Source: Escherichia coli
GTDB lineage: Bacteria > Pseudomonadota > Gammaproteobacteria > Enterobacterales > Enterobacteriaceae
Strand: one strand, 5' to 3'
Length of the DNA: 64,000 nt
NCBI GenBank assembly: GCA_022969815.1
Contig: GCA_022969815.1_4535.1
The position numbers and the translations under genes are program-made. The notes beneath the pieces are model-generated. The model was not told where the DNA came from. It made no database searches and saw only the letters and a program-made list of their open reading frames with translations. Below are positions 1 through 8,742 of the stretch, piece after piece (positions within the stretch are counted from its first letter, which is position 1; each line of letters begins with the position of its first letter).

Positions 1-10
1 GCCAAAAGCT

Positions 11-973
11 GTGCCTACCCTGCCAACAATGTCTCGTAAAGAGATTGAAGAAGTAGGTGCAGAAGCAGGTTTAACTCTCCGTTCTCTGAACGCTGAAGTG
101 CTGAAGCACCAACGTAGCAATCAAGGTGACGAAATGAGTCAACGCCTTACCGCCTTGATTAAACAAGCCAAACAGCTTGATCCTGCCTCCATTAAGCAGA
201 GTAAAGGTGTAGGTAAACTCATCAAGAAACTGATGGGGATGAAAGAAGATCTCTTCGGCGAGTTTGATAACGTGAACAACCGTATCGAAGAACTCGTTAA
301 GAATCTTCAAATGGATATCCGTAAAGAAGAAGACTCTCTGGTGTACCTGGAGAAGCTGCACCAGGCGATCGGGCAGTACGCCGCAAGTCTGAATCGTGAT
401 ATGGAATTACTCACAGCAGCTTATGAGCAAGAACTGGCTACTTTTGAAGCCACACCAGAAGATGATGTAGAAGCCCGTCAGAGCGTCCGTGACACGCTTG
501 ATCTTCTGGAGATACGTATTGCTGACTTAAAGGCATTACGCTTGCTGTGCGTGCAAATGGGGCCGCGTGTACTGGGTATGCAGAAAGTATCTGCCAGCCT
601 CATGCGTTCTGCTCGTAATATTGTGAACAATGTGATTCCTGCTTACTCTGCCAACTTCTCAATGTATATTGAAAGTCTGCGCCAGAAGAAAGCAGCAGAA
701 ACACAGAACAACGTTCTGGACGAGTTCAACCTGGCAATCAAACTGGGTAGCGATCTTGCCACACAGAATCAGATCGAAGCAGCAGCACTGGCTAACCGCC
801 AAGTGTTGGATATTGAAACCCTGCGTCACGATCAGGAAAACTTGGTTAAGATGTTGGAAGAAACTAACCGCATCAATACGGAAGCCCGTGCTGCCCGTGT
901 TGATTACATCAATGAAGTTCAATCTCTCGAAGATGGGATGGTTGATGCTGTTAAGAAGGGGCTTGGTAAATGA
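11..973 (+). CDS. TelA-like (toxic anion resistance family) all-alpha protein, tentative; may be 5'-partial (frame is open to the window edge; candidate starts GTG 11 or ATG 29)
   Basis: 320-aa ORF with no upstream stop in frame; helical, charged composition; the name rests on the TerD and vWA genes immediately downstream, not on an alignment. Confidence 0.4.
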   Translation: MPTLPTMSRKEIEEVGAEAGLTLRSLNAEVLKHQRSNQGDEMSQRLTALIKQAKQLDPASIKQSKGVGKLIKKLMGMKEDLFGEFDNVNNRIEELVKNLQMDIRKEEDSLVYLEKLHQAIGQYAASLNRDMELLTAAYEQELATFEATPEDDVEARQSVRDTLDLLEIRIADLKALRLLCVQMGPRVLGMQKVSASLMRSARNIVNNVIPAYSANFSMYIESLRQKKAAETQNNVLDEFNLAIKLGSDLATQNQIEAAALANRQVLDIETLRHDQENLVKMLEETNRINTEARAARVDYINEVQSLEDGMVDAVKKGLGK

Positions 974-1164
974 GAATCCGTATCTATATAATTGATGATA
1001 GTTTTGGTGTACGTTATGATGACGAACGTCGATTCGCACCTATGAGCAGCGTACATCCCCCAAGCATTTTAGCAAGTTTACGGAAAGATTATTCTTATGA
1101 AACTTGTAATAGTTTCGGTTTTGAGATTCTTTCAGATATAGAATTTAATGAGGAAGAAGAATGA
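970..1164 (+). CDS. hypothetical protein
   Basis: ATGA start/stop overlap with upstream gene (translational coupling); acidic C-terminus. Confidence 0.5.
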   Translation: MRIRIYIIDDSFGVRYDDERRFAPMSSVHPPSILASLRKDYSYETCNSFGFEILSDIEFNEEEE

Positions 1165-1334
1165 AAATTTTACGAGTGAGCATCGAAACAGCTTGGTGTG
1201 GATGTAGTGAGGTTGTTGATATTGAGATTGAAGAGGATATGTCTCAAGAAGATATCGAAGATCTTGCAAAAGAAACATTCCAGGATTATTGTAACTACGG
1301 GTTCCATATTTTAGAGGAGGGAGAAGATGTTTAA
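1161..1334 (+). CDS. hypothetical small acidic protein (57 aa, below ORF-track cutoff)
   Basis: ATG at 1161 overlapping upstream stop; stop TAA 1332-1334 overlaps next start at 1327; fills an otherwise empty gap. Confidence 0.4.
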   Translation: MKILRVSIETAWCGCSEVVDIEIEEDMSQEDIEDLAKETFQDYCNYGFHILEEGEDV

Positions 1335-1530
1335 CTACGAGAACGACCCTAACATTATCCAGTTAACTCGACAAGAACTGATCACAATCATGGAAGATGC
1401 TTTTATCGATGGGTGGAAGACTCAAAACTATGATTGGAGTGGCCCAGAAGACTTTCTGCGTCTTCATAAAGAGTATGACGAGTCCAGTGAGACGACTATT
1501 GCCATTGACGATCTTAAGGCAGGTGTATAA
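1327..1530 (+). CDS. hypothetical protein
   Basis: GGAGG upstream of ATG; tightly packed operon. Confidence 0.55.
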   Translation: MFNYENDPNIIQLTRQELITIMEDAFIDGWKTQNYDWSGPEDFLRLHKEYDESSETTIAIDDLKAGV

Positions 1531-2099
1531 TGGGTTGCTTTAGTTTTCTGTGTAAGGAGTCGGGCAAAGCTGCCCTCTCCACCTCTTTCGATGGATCTCC
1601 TTGCTATCTCTTTCTACTGAAAGATGGAAAGGTTATCGAAGAGATGCACGGCAATTATGATAGTTATGGGCGTGTCTTCTCCAGTAAGCAGGATGCTCAC
1701 GGGAACAGAGAAAGCTTTAAATGGACTATACCTTGGAGCGACGTTTGTGATCTTATGTTCTCTGTAAACCGTGGAGACGGTATTGCTATGGTTTTAGCAG
1801 AACACTTTACAGGAGAAGCCCCCACAGAACGATCCGAGGATGATCCTAATCAAGGTTGGGGAGACGGAGAAGAAGAGGAAGAAGAGGATTATTTCTACAG
1901 CACCGAAAATAATATTTTCAAACGTGTTGACAACCCTTATCATAAAGTGCATAATGTCCTCACTGAAACAGAAGACGACAAAATGGAAATTGAAGAAGAT
2001 GATCCTCTTGTAACACTGCCTACAAGCGAGTTACAAAAAATCATCAAAGAAGCTTACGATTTGGGCTTCAAAACTGGTAAAGGAGGAGTTAATGTTTGA
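1530..2099 (+). CDS. hypothetical protein with poly-Glu acidic stretch
   Basis: ORF with overlapping start/stop coupling; EEEEEED run. Confidence 0.55.
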   Translation: MGCFSFLCKESGKAALSTSFDGSPCYLFLLKDGKVIEEMHGNYDSYGRVFSSKQDAHGNRESFKWTIPWSDVCDLMFSVNRGDGIAMVLAEHFTGEAPTERSEDDPNQGWGDGEEEEEEDYFYSTENNIFKRVDNPYHKVHNVLTETEDDKMEIEEDDPLVTLPTSELQKIIKEAYDLGFKTGKGGVNV

Positions 2100-2364
2100 T
2101 TTTAAAATAAAAGATTCAAAACCCCAAGACGTAGCGGTTCGCTTCGAAGAGTTGGGGATTGGTGAAACTTTCATGTATTATTCAGCATACGAAGAAAATG
2201 GTTTGGATACATTTGCAAACTTAGTATTTCTTAAAAGCGGCGGCGCGACTGCTGTTTGTTTGAATAGTTCATCAAGAGGGAGTGTTCATACCGTATCCCC
2301 AGATGTGCCGATGGTTGCAGTTCGTTTAGTAGTTACCGATATTACACTTACAGAGGAGAAATAA
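2092..2364 (+). CDS. small protein, paralogue A of duplicated cassette (pairs with 3386..3667)
   Basis: N-terminus MFDFKIKDSKP and internal YSAYEENGLD match MLNFAIKKDSKP and KSAYDEDGLDP in the 3386 ORF. Confidence 0.55.
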   Translation: MFDFKIKDSKPQDVAVRFEELGIGETFMYYSAYEENGLDTFANLVFLKSGGATAVCLNSSSRGSVHTVSPDVPMVAVRLVVTDITLTEEK

Positions 2365-2365
2365 T

Positions 2366-3166
2366 ATGTCCAATAAAATTAGCCTGAAGAAACGCCAAGA
2401 CACCCTGACCATTTCACTGAAGAAAAAGAAAATCGTGAACGAAGATCAAAAGATCGTTCTGCGTGTTGCAAGTGCACTGGATATCTCCGGTAGCATGTCC
2501 AGCCTGTATCGTAACGGTACTGTAAGTGAGTTTGTTGGTAAGTTGCTTCCGTTTGGTATGCTGTTCGATGATAACGCGCAGATCGATATGTGGGCTTTCA
2601 ACAATAGCTCTCGTGAAATCACTCCAGCAACTGCTGATGTGTATGATGATTACGTTGGTAAATGCATTAATGGTCGTGTAACAGTCCAGGGTGGCACAAG
2701 CTATGCACCTGTTATGCAGGATATTTACGATTCCTACTTCGGTAGCACCACTAAATATGAAACTGTAGAAACTCCTGTAACCAAAGAAGTTCCTAAGAAA
2801 GGTTTCTTCAACCGTTTACTGGGTAAAACTGAAACTGTAGAAGCTGTTGTAGAAAAAACTGTAGCCGTTGCTGTGCCTGGTGTAGACGTTACTCCGGCAG
2901 TTGTGTTCTTCCAGACAGATGGTGAGAACGATGATCCGAGCCGTGTACTCTCCGTACTGGAAAAGAACAAGGGTAAACCTATCTACTGGTTCATGGTGGG
3001 TGTTGGTAGTGCTCGTTTCTCTTTCCTGAAAGATTTGGCTGAAGCTTACGACAACGTAGCATTCATTGGTCTGAACGATCTTTCCTTGACAGACGAGCAG
3101 CTTTACGATAAACTCTTGTCTGAAGAGTTCGGTGAGTGGGTCGAAAAGGTTGGTGCTAAGAAATGA
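2366..3166 (+). CDS. vWA-domain protein with TerD-like N-terminal tag (TerY-like)
   Basis: N-terminus MSNKISLKK...ISLKK nearly identical to the TerD ORF at 3683; DxSxS MIDAS-like motif (DISGSMSS) typical of von Willebrand A domains. Confidence 0.6.
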   Translation: MSNKISLKKRQDTLTISLKKKKIVNEDQKIVLRVASALDISGSMSSLYRNGTVSEFVGKLLPFGMLFDDNAQIDMWAFNNSSREITPATADVYDDYVGKCINGRVTVQGGTSYAPVMQDIYDSYFGSTTKYETVETPVTKEVPKKGFFNRLLGKTETVEAVVEKTVAVAVPGVDVTPAVVFFQTDGENDDPSRVLSVLEKNKGKPIYWFMVGVGSARFSFLKDLAEAYDNVAFIGLNDLSLTDEQLYDKLLSEEFGEWVEKVGAKK

Positions 3167-3405
3167 TCGACACGCTGATCTCTCAAACGGTGTTACAAGT
3201 GATGCGCGAGAGAGAAGCTTTCATCATGAAGGGTCTTAAAGATTACTTTGGGACTCTTTCTTTGGAAGAACTCAAGCTACGCGTTGAAATCCATCAGTAT
3301 CCTTTTTATGAAGAATGGATTGACAAAGCAAATAAAGCTGTTATAATGCGTATCAACAAACCAGAAATCACGACAGGAGGACAAGATGTTAAATTTCGCC
3401 ATTAA
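3163..3405 (+). CDS. hypothetical protein
   Basis: ORF overlapping upstream stop. Confidence 0.5.
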   Translation: MIDTLISQTVLQVMREREAFIMKGLKDYFGTLSLEELKLRVEIHQYPFYEEWIDKANKAVIMRINKPEITTGGQDVKFRH

Positions 3406-3667
3406 GAAAGATAGCAAACCAGAGATTCAGACTTGTCGCATTGCAAATCTTACACATCGGGATTTGTTTGTTCTGAAAAGCGCCTACGATGAAGACGGTC
3501 TTGACCCAGAAGCAGTCATCGTTTATATGGTATTGCGGCGAGACGAAGACACCAAGCACCCATATAATGCGGTAGAAATGAATTACAATGCAATGTTGTG
3601 TTCAATACACCATACGGCAGAGTTGGTGCAGGTAGAGTTAACAGTTAACGAAATTAAACTTAAATAA
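3386..3667 (+). CDS. small protein, paralogue B of duplicated cassette
   Basis: Shares N-terminal and internal motifs with 2092..2364; sits immediately upstream of the TerD gene in the same arrangement. Confidence 0.55.
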   Translation: MLNFAIKKDSKPEIQTCRIANLTHRDLFVLKSAYDEDGLDPEAVIVYMVLRRDEDTKHPYNAVEMNYNAMLCSIHHTAELVQVELTVNEIKLK

Positions 3668-3682
3668 TAGAGGAGACATATA

Positions 3683-4285
3683 ATGAGCGATAAAATTTCC
3701 CTGAAAAAAGGTTCCACCGACAAGATTTCCCTGAAGAAAGTTGCTCCGGCACTGAAAGAACTGCGTCTGGAGTTCTCCTGGAAATCAAACTCTAAACTGG
3801 ATCTGGATGTAAGCGCACTGGTATGCCGACACAACGCTTCTGGCAACCCTGAAATGCTGTCTGCACGTCATCTGGTTTGTTATGCTAACAAGTTTGATCC
3901 AGAACGTTCTGTATTCGCGGGTGATGATGTTCGTGACGGTACTGGTCAAATGGAACAGATCGATGTAACCTTGGCTAAGATCTCCGATAAAGCCGAAGAG
4001 ATTGCTTTTGTCCTGACTATTGATGATGAAACGGGTCAGAAACGTCTGGGTCACGCTACTGAAGGTATGCTGAAGATTTTCGATTCCGAACGTAACGTAG
4101 AGATCCTGGACTTCGACTTCCTGGCTCCTGAAGTAGCTGGTAACACGATCTGCCACGTAGCTTCCTTGGTTCGTGAAGACGGCGAATGGAAACTGAAAGC
4201 TTACGGTGTTGGTAAAGCAGGTATGGATATCTGTGATGTGGTTATGGCCTTCGGTGGTCAGAAAGAATGGTATGATTGCCCGTAA
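3683..4285 (+). CDS. TerD-family protein (tellurium-resistance / Ca-binding TerD domain)
   Basis: ISLKK repeats at N-terminus, GDDVRDGTGQ Ca-binding-like motif, GEWKLKAYGVG near C-terminus; matches my recollection of bacterial TerD; RBS AGGAGA upstream. Confidence 0.65.
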   Translation: MSDKISLKKGSTDKISLKKVAPALKELRLEFSWKSNSKLDLDVSALVCRHNASGNPEMLSARHLVCYANKFDPERSVFAGDDVRDGTGQMEQIDVTLAKISDKAEEIAFVLTIDDETGQKRLGHATEGMLKIFDSERNVEILDFDFLAPEVAGNTICHVASLVREDGEWKLKAYGVGKAGMDICDVVMAFGGQKEWYDCP

Positions 4286-4382
4286 GATTTAACTGAAATG
4301 TTGTTGGGGGAGAAATCCCCCATTGCAAAAACGCCTCTCATGTGTTATACTGGTAGTTCATTCACCCAAAAGGAGGCAAAAT

Positions 4383-4904
4383 TTGCTGATAAAAAACTTT
4401 GTAACAGTTGCGTTACTATCCTTAACTGCTTTTACATTTACACCTGTCACGGCAACCGCCGAAGCTGCAAACGTAAAGACTGCTAAAGTAGTTCACAAAT
4501 GTGCAAAGCAAGATACTAAAGAAAATCTCTTAGCTTGTGCAATTTACGCTGAAAGTCGTAATCAGGGTAAACGTGGAATGTATGCTGTAGGTAACGTAGT
4601 ATTGAACAGGAAAGGTGATGATTACTTCCCTGACAATATTAAAGATATTCTCTTCCAACGGGGACAATTCTCTTACAGGAAGAAGTTTAACGTTACTGAA
4701 GCAGAGCGATGGAAAGAAGCTAAAGCTATCGCAAAACGACTTATATACCTGGATACAAACTTCCCTACACTTAGAGAAGCCCAGGACATGACAAAAGGTG
4801 CGACATTTTTTAAGAAAGTAAAAACCCGTGCACACTGGACAAAAGATATGGTCTTAGTGTATCGTTATAAAGAACATCAGTTCTACTCACCGACAAGGAG
4901 CTAA
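4383..4904 (+). CDS. SleB-like cell wall hydrolase with N-terminal signal peptide (endolysin candidate); likely TTG start at 4383
   Basis: AAGGAGG at 4371-4377 followed by TTG 4383; hydrophobic signal VTVALLSLTAFTFTPVTATAEA; CAIYAESRNQ...GMYAVGNVVLNR resembles the SleB/Hydrolase_2 family. The ORF track shows a longer 4323 start. Confidence 0.55.
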   Translation: MLIKNFVTVALLSLTAFTFTPVTATAEAANVKTAKVVHKCAKQDTKENLLACAIYAESRNQGKRGMYAVGNVVLNRKGDDYFPDNIKDILFQRGQFSYRKKFNVTEAERWKEAKAIAKRLIYLDTNFPTLREAQDMTKGATFFKKVKTRAHWTKDMVLVYRYKEHQFYSPTRS

Positions 4905-5601: not shown

Positions 5602-6165
5602 ATGATTTATTATATTACCCCGTATCTGACTGGAGATATCGGCAAAGCAATTAACGATGCTATTGCCGTTCTTCATGAAGATAGTTGGGTGTGTTTACGT
5701 GATACAGATACCATGTTCTTACTGCCAGACCAACCTTCCATGTTGGAAGATTTGGTAGCAACCAACCCACCGTTCGATGTAATCGGTGCATCCTGTAACC
5801 GTTTAGGCAGTAGTTATCAACTCCTCGGCGGAAAGATTGATGATGATCCTGACATTCTGAACCATATTTCTCATGCCAAAGTTGCTCGTGATTACTATGG
5901 TGATGAAATTGAGGAAGTCCCACAAGGCACTCCCTTGGCAGGTTTCTTCCTATTGTTCAGGAAATCATTATGGAAGGAGATCCCTTTTGAAGAACGTAGC
6001 ATCCAGTTCGATATAATCTTCTCAAACACTTTACATGAACGAGGGAAAAGGTTAGGATTGATGCGTGGGATGTATCTCTTCCACATTTACCGTTTAGGTC
6101 AAAAAGATCCTCAACGGGCAATATCACACCTCATGCATTGTCATGATCACCGGAAAACTATTTAG
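5602..6165 (+). CDS. hypothetical protein (possibly glycosylation-associated)
   Basis: ORF directly upstream of the glycosyltransferase block. Confidence 0.5.
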   Translation: MIYYITPYLTGDIGKAINDAIAVLHEDSWVCLRDTDTMFLLPDQPSMLEDLVATNPPFDVIGASCNRLGSSYQLLGGKIDDDPDILNHISHAKVARDYYGDEIEEVPQGTPLAGFFLLFRKSLWKEIPFEERSIQFDIIFSNTLHERGKRLGLMRGMYLFHIYRLGQKDPQRAISHLMHCHDHRKTI

Positions 6166-6173
6166 GGGGAAAG

Positions 6174-6857
6174 ATGGAAAATGTTAAAATTGGGGTTGGC
6201 GTTATCACTGTAGGCGTTCGTCCACTTAAAGATTACATGGTTGCACCTGGTGTAGACTTCAAAGTGTTTCACGATCCCGATCGTAAAGGTGTAGCTTATG
6301 CTCGCAACCAATTGATGAAACAGTTCTACGATGAAGGTTTTGACTACTGGTTTATTTTCGACGATGATTGCTATCCAGTTAAACGTGGTTGGGAAGAATA
6401 CTTCGTTAACCAGGCTGTCGAGAATGGTTGGGACTTCTTCGGTATGCCAGAATACTTCAAAGATACTGTGATCGGTTGTTCTGGAGAAGTAGTCTTCTGG
6501 GAATTGGCTATGTGTCAGTTTGCAATGTATTCTCGTGCAATTGTTGAGACGATGGGTTATTTCCGCCCGTATACGCACGGATATGGTTTTGAAGATGCGG
6601 AATGGACTAACCGTCTGAAAGCTTCAGGTTTGAATAAAGGACTCCAGGGCGTACCTTGCCCGATGCGCATTATGGCGTACATTCACCCCGACGATGTTTT
6701 CGGAGACAACCCTTTACCTTTTGCGAATCTGACGAAAGAAGAGAAAGAAGCAGCAATCGGGATCAACTGGGAAGAATACAAACTATCTTTGGAGGATATC
6801 AATAATGGCAAAACATACATCTCTTTTGAAGAGGCTGAAGGATATGGCGTTAAATAA
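6174..6857 (+). CDS. putative GT-A-like glycosyltransferase
   Basis: DDD (DxD-like) motif in FIFDDDCYP; GGAAAG RBS-like upstream. Confidence 0.4.
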   Translation: MENVKIGVGVITVGVRPLKDYMVAPGVDFKVFHDPDRKGVAYARNQLMKQFYDEGFDYWFIFDDDCYPVKRGWEEYFVNQAVENGWDFFGMPEYFKDTVIGCSGEVVFWELAMCQFAMYSRAIVETMGYFRPYTHGYGFEDAEWTNRLKASGLNKGLQGVPCPMRIMAYIHPDDVFGDNPLPFANLTKEEKEAAIGINWEEYKLSLEDINNGKTYISFEEAEGYGVK

Positions 6858-7791
6858 GAAACCAACCCTACTGTGCGATAACAAATTCAACAGTGGTTGT
6901 GATTATCATCGCATTGTTATGCCATTTTCTCACATAGAGATCAAGCCACGTACTGATGTACTGGTCTTTAACCGCATCTTCTCGAAAGGTTCTGATGAAG
7001 TAGCCAAACTTAAGCGTCAAGGTGTTAAGATTGTTGTAGATTTGGATGATTTCTATCAGTTGAATCCAGAGCACTACCTTGCGCATCTGTACGCGCCAAA
7101 CACCCGCACCATTGTGGAAATGGTTAAATTGGCAGATGCGGTCATCGTGACAACAGAATACCTGGCATATAAAATTCGTCACTTAAACTCTAATGTTGTT
7201 GTGATCCGAAATGCTCTACCGTTCGATGATGACCAGTTCACTCTCTCGAATGATCGTACTTCGGGTACGCCTATTATCTGGGCTGGAGGTGCAAGTCATG
7301 AGCCTGATTTACGTTTGCTTTCAAATACTTTTGATGATAGTCTGTTGTCTATCGCAGGGTATGAAGCGAGCAGCACAGTGACAGGGCAAGAGTGGGTTAA
7401 GATTCGCCGTAGTTTGCCTAATGCGCAGTATAAACCTGCTGTACATTCTTTGGATGAGTATATGTCGGCATACGATGGTCACGCTATGGCGGTAGCCCCG
7501 TTAGTAGATAATGACTTCAACCATTGCAAGAGCAACCTGAAAGTATTAGAAGCTGGTGCTAAAGGCATTCCAATCGTTTGTTCTAAGGTATTACCTTACT
7601 ACAACCCGATCGATGCCCGTGCAGTAACCTTCGCAGATAGCAAGGCAGAGTGGCACTATGAAGTTGTAAAACTACTTCGTAATCCAAACTACCGTGAAGA
7701 TCGTGGACTGTTCTTGGCTGAACATGTTCGTACTCATTACAACTTGAAGGATGCAAACGAATTGCGTCGTCAAGTGATCGAAAGTCTATAG
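6805..7791 (+). CDS. putative GT-B fold glycosyltransferase, tandem paralogue 1
   Basis: C-terminal LEAGAKGIPIVCS resembles the GT-B EX7E region; strong similarity to the next ORF (CDYHRIVMP, PFDDDQFTL, YDGH..APL.DN.FN.CKSNLKVLEAGAKG); true start may be the internal ATG near 6844. Confidence 0.5.
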   Translation: MAKHTSLLKRLKDMALNKKPTLLCDNKFNSGCDYHRIVMPFSHIEIKPRTDVLVFNRIFSKGSDEVAKLKRQGVKIVVDLDDFYQLNPEHYLAHLYAPNTRTIVEMVKLADAVIVTTEYLAYKIRHLNSNVVVIRNALPFDDDQFTLSNDRTSGTPIIWAGGASHEPDLRLLSNTFDDSLLSIAGYEASSTVTGQEWVKIRRSLPNAQYKPAVHSLDEYMSAYDGHAMAVAPLVDNDFNHCKSNLKVLEAGAKGIPIVCSKVLPYYNPIDARAVTFADSKAEWHYEVVKLLRNPNYREDRGLFLAEHVRTHYNLKDANELRRQVIESL

Positions 7792-8742
7792 GTGTCTATG
7801 GGACAAATTATTCTTGACAATCGTGCTGGAAAAGAATATAGTGTCTGCGATTATCACCGAGTAATGCTGCCTTACACAAGGCAGTTCTCGGCTCAACCGT
7901 CACAGAACGTATATGTCTTTAACGGTGTCCCTACAAAAGGGAAACAAGGTTTCATAGCCCTTAAGAGCATGGGTTTTAAGATGGTAATGGATTTGGATGA
8001 CTCCTTAAACATTCCTCAAGGACACATGCTGGAAGACATTTTTGATGCAGGTATTCGAGAAGACTTGCAATGGTTTCTTGAACGTAGCGATCTTGTGACG
8101 ACAACAACACCTGCTCTCCAGGTGGAACTGTCCCAGTACAATCCTAACGTACATATTATTCCAAATGGCTTACCGTTTGATGAGGATCAGTTCACGTTAA
8201 CTCGTGATCGCTATTCCAAATCGCCGATAGTATGGGCTGGAAGTGAAACACATAAACAAGATTTAGCTCTACTGCCGAATTTTGGAAGGGATTTAACAAT
8301 CTGCGGATTCCGTAGAGATAGTGAAGTCTTAAGTAGTAAGCAATGGACTGACATACGTGAAAAAGTGGCTCCAAGCTGCAATTATGAGGCTGTTAGACCA
8401 TATGAGAGCTATATGGAATCTTATGATGGTCATCAAATAATGCTTGCGCCTTTGACCGATAACCTGTTTAATAACGCCAAAAGTAACCTTAAGATTCTGG
8501 AGGCTGGTGCCAAGGGTCTGCCTTTGGTCTGTTCTCCTCGTGAGAATTACTTCACAGAAGAGTTTAAGGATTTACTGTTCTTTGCAGAATCAAGAAGTGA
8601 ATGGGAAGATATTGTTAATTACCTGATCCAAGAACCTGATGTGGGGATCGAGAAGGGATTGGCTTTAGCTAAATATGTTCGTAAGCATTATCACATTGAT
8701 GTGCTGAATGAACGCCGTAGATTATTATTTGAGGAGCTATAA
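7792..8742 (+). CDS. putative GT-B fold glycosyltransferase, tandem paralogue 2 (start GTG 7792 or ATG 7798)
   Basis: Shares motifs with paralogue 1 (CDYHRVMLP, PFDEDQFTL, YDGH..APL.DN.FNNAKSNLKILEAGAKG). Confidence 0.5.
   Translation: MSMGQIILDNRAGKEYSVCDYHRVMLPYTRQFSAQPSQNVYVFNGVPTKGKQGFIALKSMGFKMVMDLDDSLNIPQGHMLEDIFDAGIREDLQWFLERSDLVTTTTPALQVELSQYNPNVHIIPNGLPFDEDQFTLTRDRYSKSPIVWAGSETHKQDLALLPNFGRDLTICGFRRDSEVLSSKQWTDIREKVAPSCNYEAVRPYESYMESYDGHQIMLAPLTDNLFNNAKSNLKILEAGAKGLPLVCSPRENYFTEEFKDLLFFAESRSEWEDIVNYLIQEPDVGIEKGLALAKYVRKHYHIDVLNERRRLLFEEL

What the first reader, a model, noticed from the sequence alone, without database searches (positions are those of the whole stretch)
11..4285. 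Phage-borne Ter-like module: TelA-like protein, TerD-tagged vWA protein, TerD protein, and a duplicated two-gene cassette
Three linked genes look like components of bacterial tellurite-resistance (Ter) stress systems: a TelA-like helical protein (11..973), a vWA protein whose N-terminus carries the TerD-type MS(N/D)KISLKK tag (2366..3166), and a bona fide TerD-domain protein (3683..4285). Each of the latter two is preceded by a small ~90-aa paralogue (2092..2364, 3386..3667), so the unit [small ORF + ISLKK-tagged protein] is tandemly duplicated with domain replacement. A Ter module in the early region of a lytic phage could serve Ca/metal sensing, membrane stress management or counter-defence. 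This is the strongest candidate here for an undescribed system.
Basis: partly seen in the sequence, partly recalled or inferred. Interest (0 to 1): 0.8.

Follow-up and report, generated by a model that had tools for sequence, protein, structure and literature searches.

The report
Known Ter-like stress module in phage
This is the right-hand half of a Ter ("tellurite-resistance-like") gene cluster that phAPEC8-type E. coli phages and many other lytic phages carry; it is already annotated and discussed in the literature, its function is untested, and the only undescribed details are two fast-evolving small barrel proteins.

Summary
Profile searches confirm a TelA protein (1..973, cut at its 5' end by the window edge), a vWA-TerF-like protein (2366..3166), a TerD protein (3683..4285), and two homologous ~90-aa ORFs (2092..2364, 3386..3667).

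- The window is a Phapecoctavirus (96% identical to phage phiWec188). Its relatives already carry TelA, TerD, vWA-TerF and TerC annotations.
- Upstream of the window edge, relatives encode HAD, PRTase_3, Macro, TerC and SprT-like proteins. Together these form the extended Ter system described by Aravind's group.
- Published papers already report terC/terD/terF/telA sets in lytic phages.
- The "ISLKK tag" is not a phage tag. It is a nearly invariant N-terminal element of the whole vWA-TerF-like family, bacterial members included.
- Sister genera have one small ORF, placed before vWA, and TerD follows vWA directly. So only the small gene was duplicated, not a two-gene cassette with domain replacement.

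New minor points:
- The small proteins have an SH3-like barrel fold, occur only in this subfamily, and are the fastest-evolving genes of the cluster.
- Each small-ORF pair sits behind a conserved sigma-70-type promoter.
- The phage vWA carries a variable 56-residue beta-hairpin.

Function is inferred, not shown: an early-expressed, metal-dependent complex under the membrane.

The parts
1..973 (+). TelA-family protein, 3' 323 codons only (5' end cut by the window edge; full length 370 aa in relatives)
   Evidence: Pfam PF05816 E 2.4e-34. phrog_5890 'tellurite resistance' E 1e-120. The reading frame is open to base 2. Relatives annotate a 1113-bp gene. 91% aa identity to SKA64.
970..1530 (+). 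Three small ORFs (970..1164, 1161..1334, 1327..1530), overlapping or abutting, conserved in relatives, function unknown
   Evidence: PHROG families of unknown function for the first and third ORF (1161..1334 was not scanned). Annotated as hypothetical in relatives. 1327..1530 lacks the N-terminal ~65 aa present in relatives.
1530..2099 (+). 189-aa protein with an acidic middle, function unknown; conserved directly upstream of the small ORF in Phapecoctavirus and Justusliebigvirus
   Evidence: phrog_14928 E 3e-105. No Pfam, NCBIfam or PDB match. 76-80% identity to orthologues. Paralogous to the full-length form of 1327..1530.
1927..1955 (+). Sigma-70-type promoter-like site (TTGACA-N17-CATAAT) inside the 189-aa ORF, 137 nt upstream of small ORF A
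   Evidence: 11/12 match. Both hexamers are invariant in four phages while synonymous sites in the spacer vary. Inferred, not shown to be active.
2092..2364 (+). Small ORF A (90 aa), predicted SH3-like beta-barrel. Its stop lies 1 nt before the vWA start, and the SD for vWA lies in its 3' end
2366..3166 (+). vWA-TerF-like protein (266 aa) with a complete MIDAS motif, an N-terminal ISLKK-x-ISLKK element and a 56-residue beta-hairpin insert (residues 121-176)
   Evidence: PF10138 E 2.4e-37. D39, S41, S43, T111 and D185 invariant in 56 homologues. AF2 pLDDT 92.9. Foldseek hits to vWA domains. Insert 44% conserved against ~70% elsewhere.
3163..3405 (+). 80-aa ORF, function unknown, overlapping the vWA stop (ATGA); contains the promoter for the next unit
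   Evidence: phrog_22387 E 5e-27. 60% identity to SKA64. No convincing relative in distant phage contigs.
3320..3347 (+). Perfect sigma-70 promoter TTGACA-N16-TATAAT with TG extension, 39 nt upstream of small ORF B
   Evidence: 12/12 match. It is the only such site in the 64 kb (0.02 expected). Both hexamers are conserved in SKA64. Justusliebigvirus has TTGACT-N17-TAAAAT in the vWA-TerD spacer.
3386..3667 (+). Small ORF B (93 aa), paralogue of small ORF A
   Evidence: BLASTP against A E 7e-10. phrog_11278 E 7e-15. Present only in Phapecoctavirus. 44% identity to SKA64.
3683..4285 (+). TerD-domain protein (200 aa)
   Evidence: PF02342 E 2.6e-29. PDB TerD 3ibz and 2kxt E ~2e-14 over residues 5-184. 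91% identity to SKA64.
4306..4321 (+). GC hairpin GGGGGA-GAAA-TCCCCC after the TerD stop, with no T-run; possible unit boundary or RNA stability element
   Evidence: Read directly from the sequence. Not called as a terminator by the scan.
4383..4904 (+). SleB-like cell-wall hydrolase with an N-terminal signal-like hydrophobic segment; a conserved neighbour of the module, not a Ter protein
   Evidence: PF07486 E 4.6e-17. Relatives annotate a 522-bp gene. The order TelA-vWA-TerD-Hydrolase_2 recurs in the distant contig L012.

Best explanation
Region 1..4285 is the 3' half of a roughly 10-kb Ter-like ('tellurite-resistance-like') gene cluster. The cluster is conserved in Stephanstirmvirinae myoviruses (phAPEC8/phi92 group), and reduced forms occur in many other lytic phages.

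Shown:
- Relatives 78-96% identical in DNA to the window carry the full cluster: HAD phosphatase, PRTase_3, Macro, TerC, three unknowns, SprT-like protease, TelA, four small or acidic ORFs, an SH3-like small protein, vWA-TerF-like, (80-aa ORF plus a second SH3-like protein, in Phapecoctavirus only), and TerD.
- The vWA has an intact MIDAS metal site.
- TerD aligns end to end with solved Ca2+-binding TerD structures.
- The units [small A + vWA] and [small B + TerD] each lie behind a conserved host-type sigma-70 promoter.

Inferred:
- The genes are transcribed early by host RNA polymerase.
- TerC (a membrane cation transporter family), TelA (helical, membrane-associated), the MIDAS vWA and TerD assemble into a divalent-cation-dependent complex under the membrane. 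This complex changes inner-membrane properties of the infected cell.
- The most likely purpose is to exclude superinfecting phages or pore-formers, or to keep the envelope stable until lysis.
- The upstream PRTase/HAD/Macro enzymes make or process a nucleotide-derived ligand.
- The SH3-like small proteins are lineage-specific, translationally coupled accessory subunits (adaptor or chaperone) of the vWA and TerD proteins. They are not part of the ancestral system.
For: Family assignments:
- Pfam hits for TelA, vWA-TerF-like and TerD in the window.
- Pfam hits for PRTase_3 (4.9e-41), TerC (1.7e-39), Macro and SprT-like, plus a sub-threshold HAD hit, in the upstream genes of phiWec188.

Identity of the window:
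- 96% identical to phiWec188.
- 78% identical to annotated Phapecoctavirus records that name TelA, TerD and vWA-TerF.

Protein features:
- MIDAS residues invariant.
- vWA fold predicted at pLDDT 92.9, with vWA structural hits.
- TerD matches PDB 3ibz and 2kxt.

Conserved order:
- The same order occurs in Justusliebigvirus and Klebsiella phage 05F01.
- The order TelA-vWA-TerD also occurs in distant phage contigs.
- vWA-TerF homologues occur in 184 phage records across many host genera.

Promoters.

Literature:
- Phage Ter systems are proposed to act in inter-phage competition through sub-membrane structures (PMC7824862).
- Ter sets are reported in phiKp34 and PhiPsa374, with function unknown.
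Against: - No experiment on any phage Ter module was found in six literature searches.
- The acidic Ca2+-binding loop of TerD is partly degenerate. GDDVRDGTGQMEQ replaces the canonical GDN(R/I)TGEG(D/E)GDDE, and three acidic positions become T, Q and M.
- TerB, TerZ, TerA and TerE are absent, so this is not the classical terZABCDEF operon.
- No PADLOC defence model matches the TelA, vWA, TerD or small-ORF proteins.
- The upstream half of the cluster is inferred from relatives, because the window starts inside telA.
- Physical interaction among the proteins, and between the small proteins and vWA or TerD, is inferred only from gene order and coupling.
Confidence: 0.6

Rival explanations
1. Metal-homeostasis auxiliary module. 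TerC-family proteins export Mn2+ or Ca2+. The phage module (TerC plus metal-binding TerD and the MIDAS vWA) would tune divalent cations in the infected cell or metalate a secreted phage enzyme. An example is the signal-peptide-bearing SleB-like hydrolase encoded immediately downstream. On this view the module does not exclude competitors.
For: - TerC in the cluster.
- MIDAS intact.
- TerD homologous to Ca2+-binding structures.
- The Hydrolase_2 gene directly follows TerD both here and in the distant contig L012.
- Titles and abstracts listed link TerC-family proteins to metals: Alx, described as a manganese exporter (PMC10197570), and Klebsiella terC, linked to tellurite and zinc resistance (PMC12054061). 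Neither paper was opened.
Against: - It gives no role for TelA, SprT-like, PRTase, HAD or Macro.
- The hydrolase neighbour may be simple synteny.
- The TerD acidic loop is partly degenerate.
Confidence: 0.2
2. Counter-defence module. The phage copies host Ter or nucleotide-signalling components to jam or pre-empt a host Ter-type or nucleotide-signal-based immune response. The Macro, PRTase and HAD enzymes would degrade or mimic a signal, and the fast-evolving small proteins and the vWA hairpin would be the conflict interface.
For: - The small ORFs (44-52% identity) and the vWA hairpin (44%) evolve much faster than TelA and TerD (91%) between sub-lineages.
- Macro and PRTase genes lie in the same cluster.
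- Host ter operons confer phage inhibition (Whelan 1995, cited).
Against: - No PADLOC hit for the TelA, vWA, TerD or small-ORF proteins.
- No known anti-defence homology.
- Fast evolution of small phage ORFs is common and was not tested for positive selection.
- The module also occurs in phages of hosts that lack ter operons.
Confidence: 0.12
3. One reading: a novel phage system built by tandem duplication of a [small ORF + ISLKK-tagged protein] cassette with domain replacement, in which the ISLKK peptide is a shared tag recognised by the small paralogues.
For: - The two small ORFs are true paralogues.
- Both downstream proteins start with MS(N/D)KISLKK.
- Each pair has its own promoter and a similar AGAGGAGA SD.
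- hhalign aligns the first ~34 columns of the vWA and TerD profiles (E 0.0014).
Against: - The motif is family-wide in bacterial vWA-TerF-like proteins that have no small ORF nearby.
- It is also the normal TerD N-terminus.
- Sister genera have one small ORF yet both proteins carry the motif.
- vWA-TerD adjacency predates the small ORFs.
- The hhalign probability is only 17.6%.
- AF2 models the vWA N-terminus as a helix, unlike the TerD strands.
Confidence: 0.05
4. Genuine tellurite or toxic-anion resistance conferred on the host.
For: Only the family names and the GenBank product names ('tellurite resistance protein').
Against: - The phage belongs to a family of virulent phages, and the gene set lacks TerB, TerZ, TerA and TerE.
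- PMC9796965 judges tellurium resistance unlikely for an equivalent phage set.
Confidence: 0.03

Closest known systems
Extended Ter stress-response system (Anantharaman, Iyer & Aravind 2012, Mol Biosyst 8:3142; summarised in PMC7824862)
   Same: The component families are clustered together: TerC, TerD, TelA, the TerF-type vWA, PRTase (Pfam PRTase_3 was defined from these systems), HAD phosphoesterase and a SprT-like protease. The functional partition described in PMC7824862 also fits: nucleotide-derivative synthesis, ligand/metal-binding domains, a membrane component and sub-membrane structural components.
   Different: - No TerB and no ATP-grasp enzyme were detected in the genes examined.
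- A single TerD paralogue instead of several.
- A Macro domain, four small acidic ORFs and lineage-specific SH3-like small proteins are added.
- The vWA is stand-alone, not fused to TerD, and carries a 56-residue beta-hairpin insert.
- The 2012 paper itself could not be read here. What is attributed to it rests on PMC7824862 and on my own recollection.
Ter clusters reported in other lytic phages: PhiPsa374 (terC, terD, terF, telA), Klebsiella phiKp34, Acinetobacter ME3 and Caulobacter jumbo phages
   Same: The same four core families occur in virulent phage genomes, with function unknown and superinfection exclusion proposed. vWA homologues of the window protein are found in those groups by tblastn.
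   Different: Gene order differs; for example, L006 has vWA-TerC-64 aa-TerD-TerD. These phages lack the SH3-like small ORFs, and their vWA insert is shorter.
Classical terZABCDEF operon of IncHI2 plasmids and E. coli O157 (tellurite resistance, phage inhibition, colicin resistance)
   Same: TerC, a TerD-family protein and a TerF-like vWA domain are shared. There is a historical link to phage inhibition and to resistance against pore-forming colicins (cited).
   Different: - TerZ, TerA, TerB and TerE are absent.
- TelA comes from the separate telAB/kla system.
- In TerF-type fusions recovered here (P0102, P0103, P0105) the vWA is fused behind a TerD domain. Here the vWA is a separate gene.
Copine/BONZAI and RGLG vWA domains (eukaryotic Ca2+-dependent membrane-binding proteins)
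   Same: They are the closest solved sequence relatives of the vWA-TerF-like profile (E ~1e-5) and are also structural matches. They share the MIDAS-bearing vWA fold.
   Different: No C2 or RING domains. Identity is only 10-17%. The resemblance is at the level of domain superfamily.

Membership tests
TelA (Pfam PF05816) | Full-length match to the TelA profile above the gathering score | tested here: met
   119.4 bits against a cut-off of 30, covering profile positions 13-326 of 332. Orthologues in L004 and L005 also match. The N-terminal ~47 aa lie outside the window.
TerD domain (Pfam PF02342) | Match to the TerD profile above the gathering score, and homology to solved TerD structures | tested here: met
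   102.5 bits against a cut-off of 25.3. PDB 3ibz and 2kxt at E ~2e-14 over residues 5-184.
TerD domain (Pfam PF02342) | Conserved acidic Ca2+-binding loops (DLDxSA and GDNxTGEGDGDDE-type motifs) | tested here: inconclusive
   LDLDVSA is retained. The second loop reads GDDVRDGTGQMEQ, with three acidic positions replaced by T, Q and M (alignment). The same pattern is conserved across Stephanstirmvirinae TerDs. Which residues ligate Ca2+ is recalled from memory, not checked on coordinates.
vWA-TerF-like (Pfam PF10138) | Profile match above the gathering score | tested here: met
   129.5 bits against a cut-off of 29.4.
vWA-TerF-like (Pfam PF10138) | vWA Rossmann-like fold with a MIDAS motif (DxSxS...T...D) | tested here: met
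   D39, S41, S43, T111 and D185 are invariant in 56 homologues. AF2 model pLDDT 92.9. Foldseek matches to vWA/I-domains at E 4e-6 to 1e-4.
vWA-TerF-like (Pfam PF10138) | N-terminal double h-S-L-x-K element preceding the first vWA strand (a family feature found here) | tested here: met
   L7, K9, L18 and K20 are at least 90% conserved. The element is visible in phage, bacterial stand-alone and TerD-vWA fusion proteins.
Extended Ter system (Aravind-type gene neighbourhood) | Clustering of TerC, TerD, TelA and the TerF-type vWA with PRTase and HAD enzymes | tested here: met
   Met in phiWec188, PsgM04F and SKA64, which are 78-96% identical to the window. The HAD call rests on a sub-threshold Pfam hit (22.6 bits, cut-off 26.4), a weak TIGR02252 hit and the SKA64 annotation. 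The upstream half lies outside the window itself.
Classical terZABCDEF operon | Presence of TerB and multiple TerD paralogues (TerZ, TerA, TerE) | tested here: not met
   Only one TerD-family gene was found, and no TerB hit, among the cluster proteins scanned.
Classical terZABCDEF operon | Confers tellurite resistance, phage inhibition and colicin resistance | not testable with these tools
   Phenotypic assay required.
Known anti-phage defence systems (PADLOC, e.g. TerY-P) | Match to a PADLOC model for the module proteins | tested here: not met
   No hit for TelA, vWA, TerD, the small ORFs or the 189-aa ORF. The only hit is a weak PRTase match (E 0.0018) for the upstream PRTase.
SH3-like small beta-barrel (small ORFs) | Five- to six-stranded small barrel superposable on SH3/Tudor/KOW domains | tested here: inconclusive

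The most novel reading that the evidence does not exclude
The two fast-evolving SH3-like small proteins may be dedicated, exchangeable adaptor subunits. They would dock either on the conserved N-terminal h-S-L-x-K double element shared by vWA-TerF-like and TerD proteins, or on the phage-specific variable beta-hairpin arm of the vWA. This docking would set the assembly or target specificity of a phage Ter complex used in phage-phage or phage-host conflict.

A corollary concerns the shared N-terminal element. It has a beta-type hydrophobic periodicity and forms strands in TerD, yet AF2 models it as a helix in the vWA monomer. It could be an undescribed hetero-oligomerisation (strand-exchange) motif linking the TerD and vWA families across bacteria.
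Probability: 0.12. Interest if true: 0.5.

Novelty: already known. Interest (0 to 1): 0.28.

Why it matters
Ter-family genes are among the most widespread stress and defence gene sets in bacteria whose mechanism is still unexplained. Their recurrent capture by virulent phages (184 phage records for the vWA alone) suggests a function that matters during infection.

This window adds no new system. It does offer a compact and tractable case. E. coli K-12 phages such as the BASEL-collection phage PaulScherrer (locus tags bas60) carry the same module. The module has strong host-type promoters, an intact MIDAS site and lineage-specific accessory proteins.

A deletion and pull-down study in these phages could give the first experimental handle on what TelA, TerD, TerF-vWA and TerC do together. 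For the genome scan itself, the practical result is that this finding should be filed as known and annotated, not as a candidate new system.

Tried and rejected
- PADLOC and NCBIfam scans of the module proteins: nothing, apart from weak PRTase and HAD hits on the upstream genes.
- Word-indexed homologue search with small ORF A alone: only one hit. It had to be repeated with an alignment.
- Exhaustive profile search of 1.84 billion representatives with the small-ORF profile: 26 hits. About 20 are ~87-93-aa proteins or shorter fragments. Six are partial matches in large (714-3274 aa) proteins. The three of those checked are an fn3-repeat protein and two BlaR1-type proteins, which I regard as spurious.
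- The search for related loci in IMG/VR: only 3 loci, all Stephanstirmvirinae.
- AlphaFold DB search: library unavailable.
- hhalign of the vWA and TerD profiles, to test homology of the N-terminal motif: 34 columns, probability 17.6%. Too weak to decide.
- The 80-aa ORF against the small ORFs that occupy the same position in distant contigs: no credible similarity.
- The 189-aa ORF: no Pfam, PDB or NCBIfam relative.
- The primary Ter paper (PMID 23044854, PMC4104200) is not held.
- Searches for functional work on phage Ter genes found none.
- The idea that the vWA protein is a TerF that lost its TerD domain and kept the first strands was rejected. Fusion proteins carry the motif a second time, between the TerD and vWA domains.

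Full report
**1. What is in the sequence**

The ORF list shows a tightly packed, same-strand gene array from the left edge of the window to about 4.9 kb.

| Coordinates | Product |
|---|---|
| 1(11)..973 | TelA (partial) |
| 970..1164 | small ORF |
| 1161..1334 | small ORF |
| 1327..1530 | small ORF |
| 1530..2099 | 189-aa ORF |
| 2092..2364 | small ORF A, 90 aa |
| 2366..3166 | vWA protein, 266 aa |
| 3163..3405 | 80-aa ORF |
| 3386..3667 | small ORF B, 93 aa |
| 3683..4285 | TerD protein, 200 aa |
| 4383..4904 | SleB-like hydrolase |

Neighbouring genes overlap or are separated by 1-16 nt.

Pfam confirms the three family calls far above the curated cut-offs:
- TelA: E 2.4e-34.
- vWA-TerF-like: E 2.4e-37.
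- TerD: E 2.6e-29.

The TelA frame is open to base 2. Relatives have a 370-aa gene. The window therefore starts about 47 codons into telA, and the GTG at 11 is not a start codon.

The two small ORFs are real paralogues:
- BLASTP gives 33% identity, E 7e-10.
- Both fall in phrog_11278.
- Six orthologues and paralogues share 14 invariant columns.

The double ISLKK motif is found only at the N-termini of the vWA and TerD proteins in the whole six-frame translation.

**2. Where the window comes from, and the full extent of the module**

The region is 96% identical to Escherichia phage phiWec188 and about 78% identical to typical Phapecoctavirus genomes, including SKA64, ESCO37 and WPEC phages. An IMG/VR contig of 153 kb carries a 100% identical small ORF.

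In these relatives the array continues upstream of the window edge. The upstream genes, in order, are:
- a HAD hydrolase;
- PRTase_3 (PF15610, E 4.9e-41);
- a Macro domain protein;
- a small membrane protein;
- TerC (E 1.7e-39);
- three unknowns;
- a SprT-like protease;
- then TelA.

The HAD call rests on a sub-threshold Pfam hit, a weak TIGR02252 match and the SKA64 annotation.

This matches the component list of the extended Ter system as summarised by Iyer et al. 2021 (PMC7824862): PRTase and HAD enzymes for a nucleotide derivative, TerD-type ligand/metal binders, TerC in the membrane, and TelA plus the TerF vWA as sub-membrane components.

GenBank records of relatives already name these genes. 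Examples are 'TelA-like protein', 'TerD family protein', 'general stress protein 16U', a vWA-TerF-like note, and 'ycbR'.

**3. Is it new?**

No. Several papers report terC/terD/terF/telA sets in virulent phages:
- PhiPsa374 (PMC9796965).
- Klebsiella phiKp34 (PMC8386662).

All of them say the function is unknown. The last proposes use against superinfecting phages.

tblastn with the window's vWA protein finds 184 phage records on hosts from Escherichia to Caulobacter, Rhizobium, Bacillus and Pseudomonas. None of my literature searches found an experimental study of a phage Ter module.

**4. The 'ISLKK tag'**

I aligned 56 vWA-TerF-like proteins, including stand-alone bacterial ones from Paenibacillus, Paraclostridium and cyanobacteria. 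The pattern h-S/D-L-x-K ... h-x-L-x-K directly precedes the first vWA strand in nearly all of them. L7, K9, L18 and K20 are at least 90% conserved.

In TerD-vWA fusion proteins (P0102, P0103, P0105) the element sits between the two domains, for example '...PISLTKKEAKAISLKKELTEEPKNAISLKKREVIITLEKKK...'. It is therefore an intrinsic N-terminal element of the vWA-TerF-like family. It is not a remnant of a deleted TerD domain, and it is not a phage-specific tag.

The same pattern is the normal N-terminus of TerD domains (VSLSKGGNVSLSK in 3ibz and 2kxt).

Whether the two are homologous is undecided:
- hhalign aligns only the first 34 columns, at probability 17.6%.
- AlphaFold2 models residues 7-20 of the vWA protein as a helix (pLDDT 81-95).
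- Yet the i/i+2 hydrophobic spacing looks beta-like, as in TerD.

I leave this as an unresolved curiosity.

**5. The 'duplicated cassette'**

The comparative data show the following arrangements:
- Justusliebigvirus (PaulScherrer) and Klebsiella phage 05F01 have TelA ... [187-239-aa ORF]-[small ORF]-[vWA]-[TerD], with a single small ORF.
- More distant phage contigs have TelA-vWA-(unrelated 55-69-aa ORF)-TerD-Hydrolase_2, or vWA-TerC-TerD-TerD. They have no member of the small-ORF family.

An exhaustive profile search of 1.84 billion representatives found only 26 hits. tblastn finds small ORF A in 127 phage records and small ORF B in 72, essentially all Stephanstirmvirinae.

vWA-TerD adjacency is therefore ancestral. 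The small ORF is a subfamily-specific addition in front of vWA. Phapecoctavirus later placed a diverged copy, plus an 80-aa ORF, in front of TerD. 'Duplication of a two-gene unit with domain replacement' is not supported.

**6. What the parts look like**

The vWA model is confident (pLDDT 92.9). It matches vWA/I-domains, and copine/BONZAI and RGLG are its closest solved sequence relatives. The MIDAS residues D39, S41, S43, T111 and D185 are invariant.

Phage orthologues carry a 56-residue two-stranded beta-hairpin (residues 121-176), where most bacterial homologues have 10-15 residues. It is the least conserved part of the protein: 44% identity against about 70% elsewhere.

Amino-acid identity between the window lineage and SKA64:

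| Protein | Identity |
|---|---|
| TelA | 91% |
| TerD | 91% |
| 189-aa ORF | 80% |
| vWA | 74% |
| 80-aa ORF | 60% |
| small ORF A | 52% |
| small ORF B | 44% |

The small proteins are the fastest-evolving genes of the cluster.

TerD keeps the DLDxSA motif. Its acidic loop, however, is GDDVRDGTGQMEQ rather than the canonical GDNxTGEGDGDDE, so full Ca2+ binding is uncertain.

**7. Regulation**

A perfect TTGACA-N16-(TG)n-TATAAT promoter lies at 3320..3347, inside the 80-aa ORF and 39 nt upstream of small ORF B.
- It is the only such site in the 64 kb (0.02 expected).
- Both hexamers are conserved in SKA64.
- Justusliebigvirus, which lacks small ORF B, has TTGACT-N17-TAAAAT in the vWA-TerD spacer.

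A second site lies at 1927..1955 (TTGACA-N17-CATAAT), 137 nt upstream of small ORF A. Its hexamers are invariant in four phages while synonymous positions in the spacer vary.

I infer two host-polymerase (early) units:
- P1, small A, vWA, 80-aa ORF.
- P2, small B, TerD.

The second unit ends at a GC hairpin with a GAAA loop at 4306..4321. Promoter activity is inferred, not shown.

**8. Most likely mechanism**

The evidence falls into three tiers.

*Shown:* family membership, gene order, intact MIDAS, and conservation.

*From established knowledge (partly my own recollection, partly):*
- TerC proteins are membrane cation transporters.
- TerD binds Ca2+.
- TelA and the ter operon are linked to resistance against membrane-active agents, phages and pore-forming colicins.

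*Inferred:*
- The phage expresses the set early.
- It builds a divalent-cation-dependent complex under the membrane that alters inner-membrane behaviour. The purpose would be to exclude competitors or stabilise the envelope until lysis.
- The upstream PRTase, HAD and Macro enzymes supply or process a nucleotide-derived ligand.
- The SH3-like proteins act as lineage-specific accessory subunits.

I put the identification at about 0.95 and this mechanism at about 0.35.

Rivals:
- Metal homeostasis or metalation. The conserved neighbour is a signal-peptide SleB-like hydrolase.
- Counter-defence. Fast-evolving components and the Macro domain point this way, but there is no PADLOC match for the module proteins.
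- Literal tellurite resistance, which is unlikely.

**9. Verdict**

The system, however, is a known and already annotated phage Ter module.

The residual novelty is modest:
- an uncharacterised, subfamily-restricted pair of SH3-like proteins;
- a variable hairpin arm on the vWA;
- a conserved N-terminal element shared by the TerD and vWA-TerF families whose role is unknown.

Noticed in passing
window 3320..3347: This is the only perfect TTGACA-N16-TATAAT site (with a TG extension) in the 64-kb window (0.02 expected by chance). It is embedded in the coding sequence of the 80-aa ORF. Both hexamers are conserved in SKA64 at 78% overall DNA identity.
   Followed up: yes
window 1327..1530: This ORF (67 aa) lacks the N-terminal ~65 residues present in phiWec188 and SKA64 (132 aa), which looks like an in-frame deletion of ~195 bp. 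The full-length form appears paralogous to the adjacent 189-aa ORF 1530..2099. The two share an N-terminal beta-rich segment and a C-terminal L(T/P)xxELxxIxxxAxxxG(F/W)KT motif.
   Followed up: partly
window 2726..2893 (vWA residues 121-176): A phage-specific 56-residue beta-hairpin insert in the vWA domain is modelled with high confidence as two 17-residue strands. Most bacterial homologues have 10-15 residues here, and it is the least conserved segment among orthologues.
   Followed up: partly
window 4306..4321: A GGGGGA-GAAA-TCCCCC hairpin (GNRA-type loop) lies right after the TerD stop, with no T-run. It is followed by a promoter-like site at 4323..4351 ahead of the hydrolase gene.
   Followed up: no
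window 4383..4904 (ORF list gives 4323..4904): A SleB-like cell-wall hydrolase (PF07486) has an N-terminal hydrophobic, signal-like segment ending ...ATAEA. Relatives start it at the position equivalent to 4383, behind an AAGGAGG SD, so the TTG at 4323 is probably not the start. The order TelA-vWA-TerD-Hydrolase_2 is also kept in the distant metagenomic phage contig L012.
   Followed up: partly
window 5602..8742: Four consecutive glycosyltransferase-like genes are annotated as such in relatives. They include two adjacent paralogous GT1-type genes (6805..7791 and 7792..8742). They lie between the Ter module and the primase/helicase.
   Followed up: no
GenBank records OR584014 (L003), OP562383, MG065689/MG065639: Records labelled Pseudomonas phage PsgM04F, Acinetobacter phage ABPW7 and Campylobacter phages A110a/A150 match E. 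coli Stephanstirmvirinae phages. PsgM04F shares 95% DNA identity with this window, ABPW7 78%, and the Campylobacter records ~51-67% protein identity in Justusliebigvirus-like matches. The host labels look doubtful.
   Followed up: no
L012 4631..4888: In a distant phage contig with the order TelA-vWA-TerD-Hydrolase_2, the next gene is an 85-aa 'Phage_tudor' (PF24144) protein, followed by a SprT-like gene. This is another small Tudor/SH3-type barrel near a Ter module, but it has no detectable sequence relation to the window's small ORFs.
   Followed up: partly
L004 7779..8381 (Justusliebigvirus PaulScherrer): A 200-aa ORF directly after TerD has the same length as TerD but gives no TerD Pfam hit and aligns poorly. 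It may be a highly diverged TerD paralogue or an unrelated protein.
   Followed up: no
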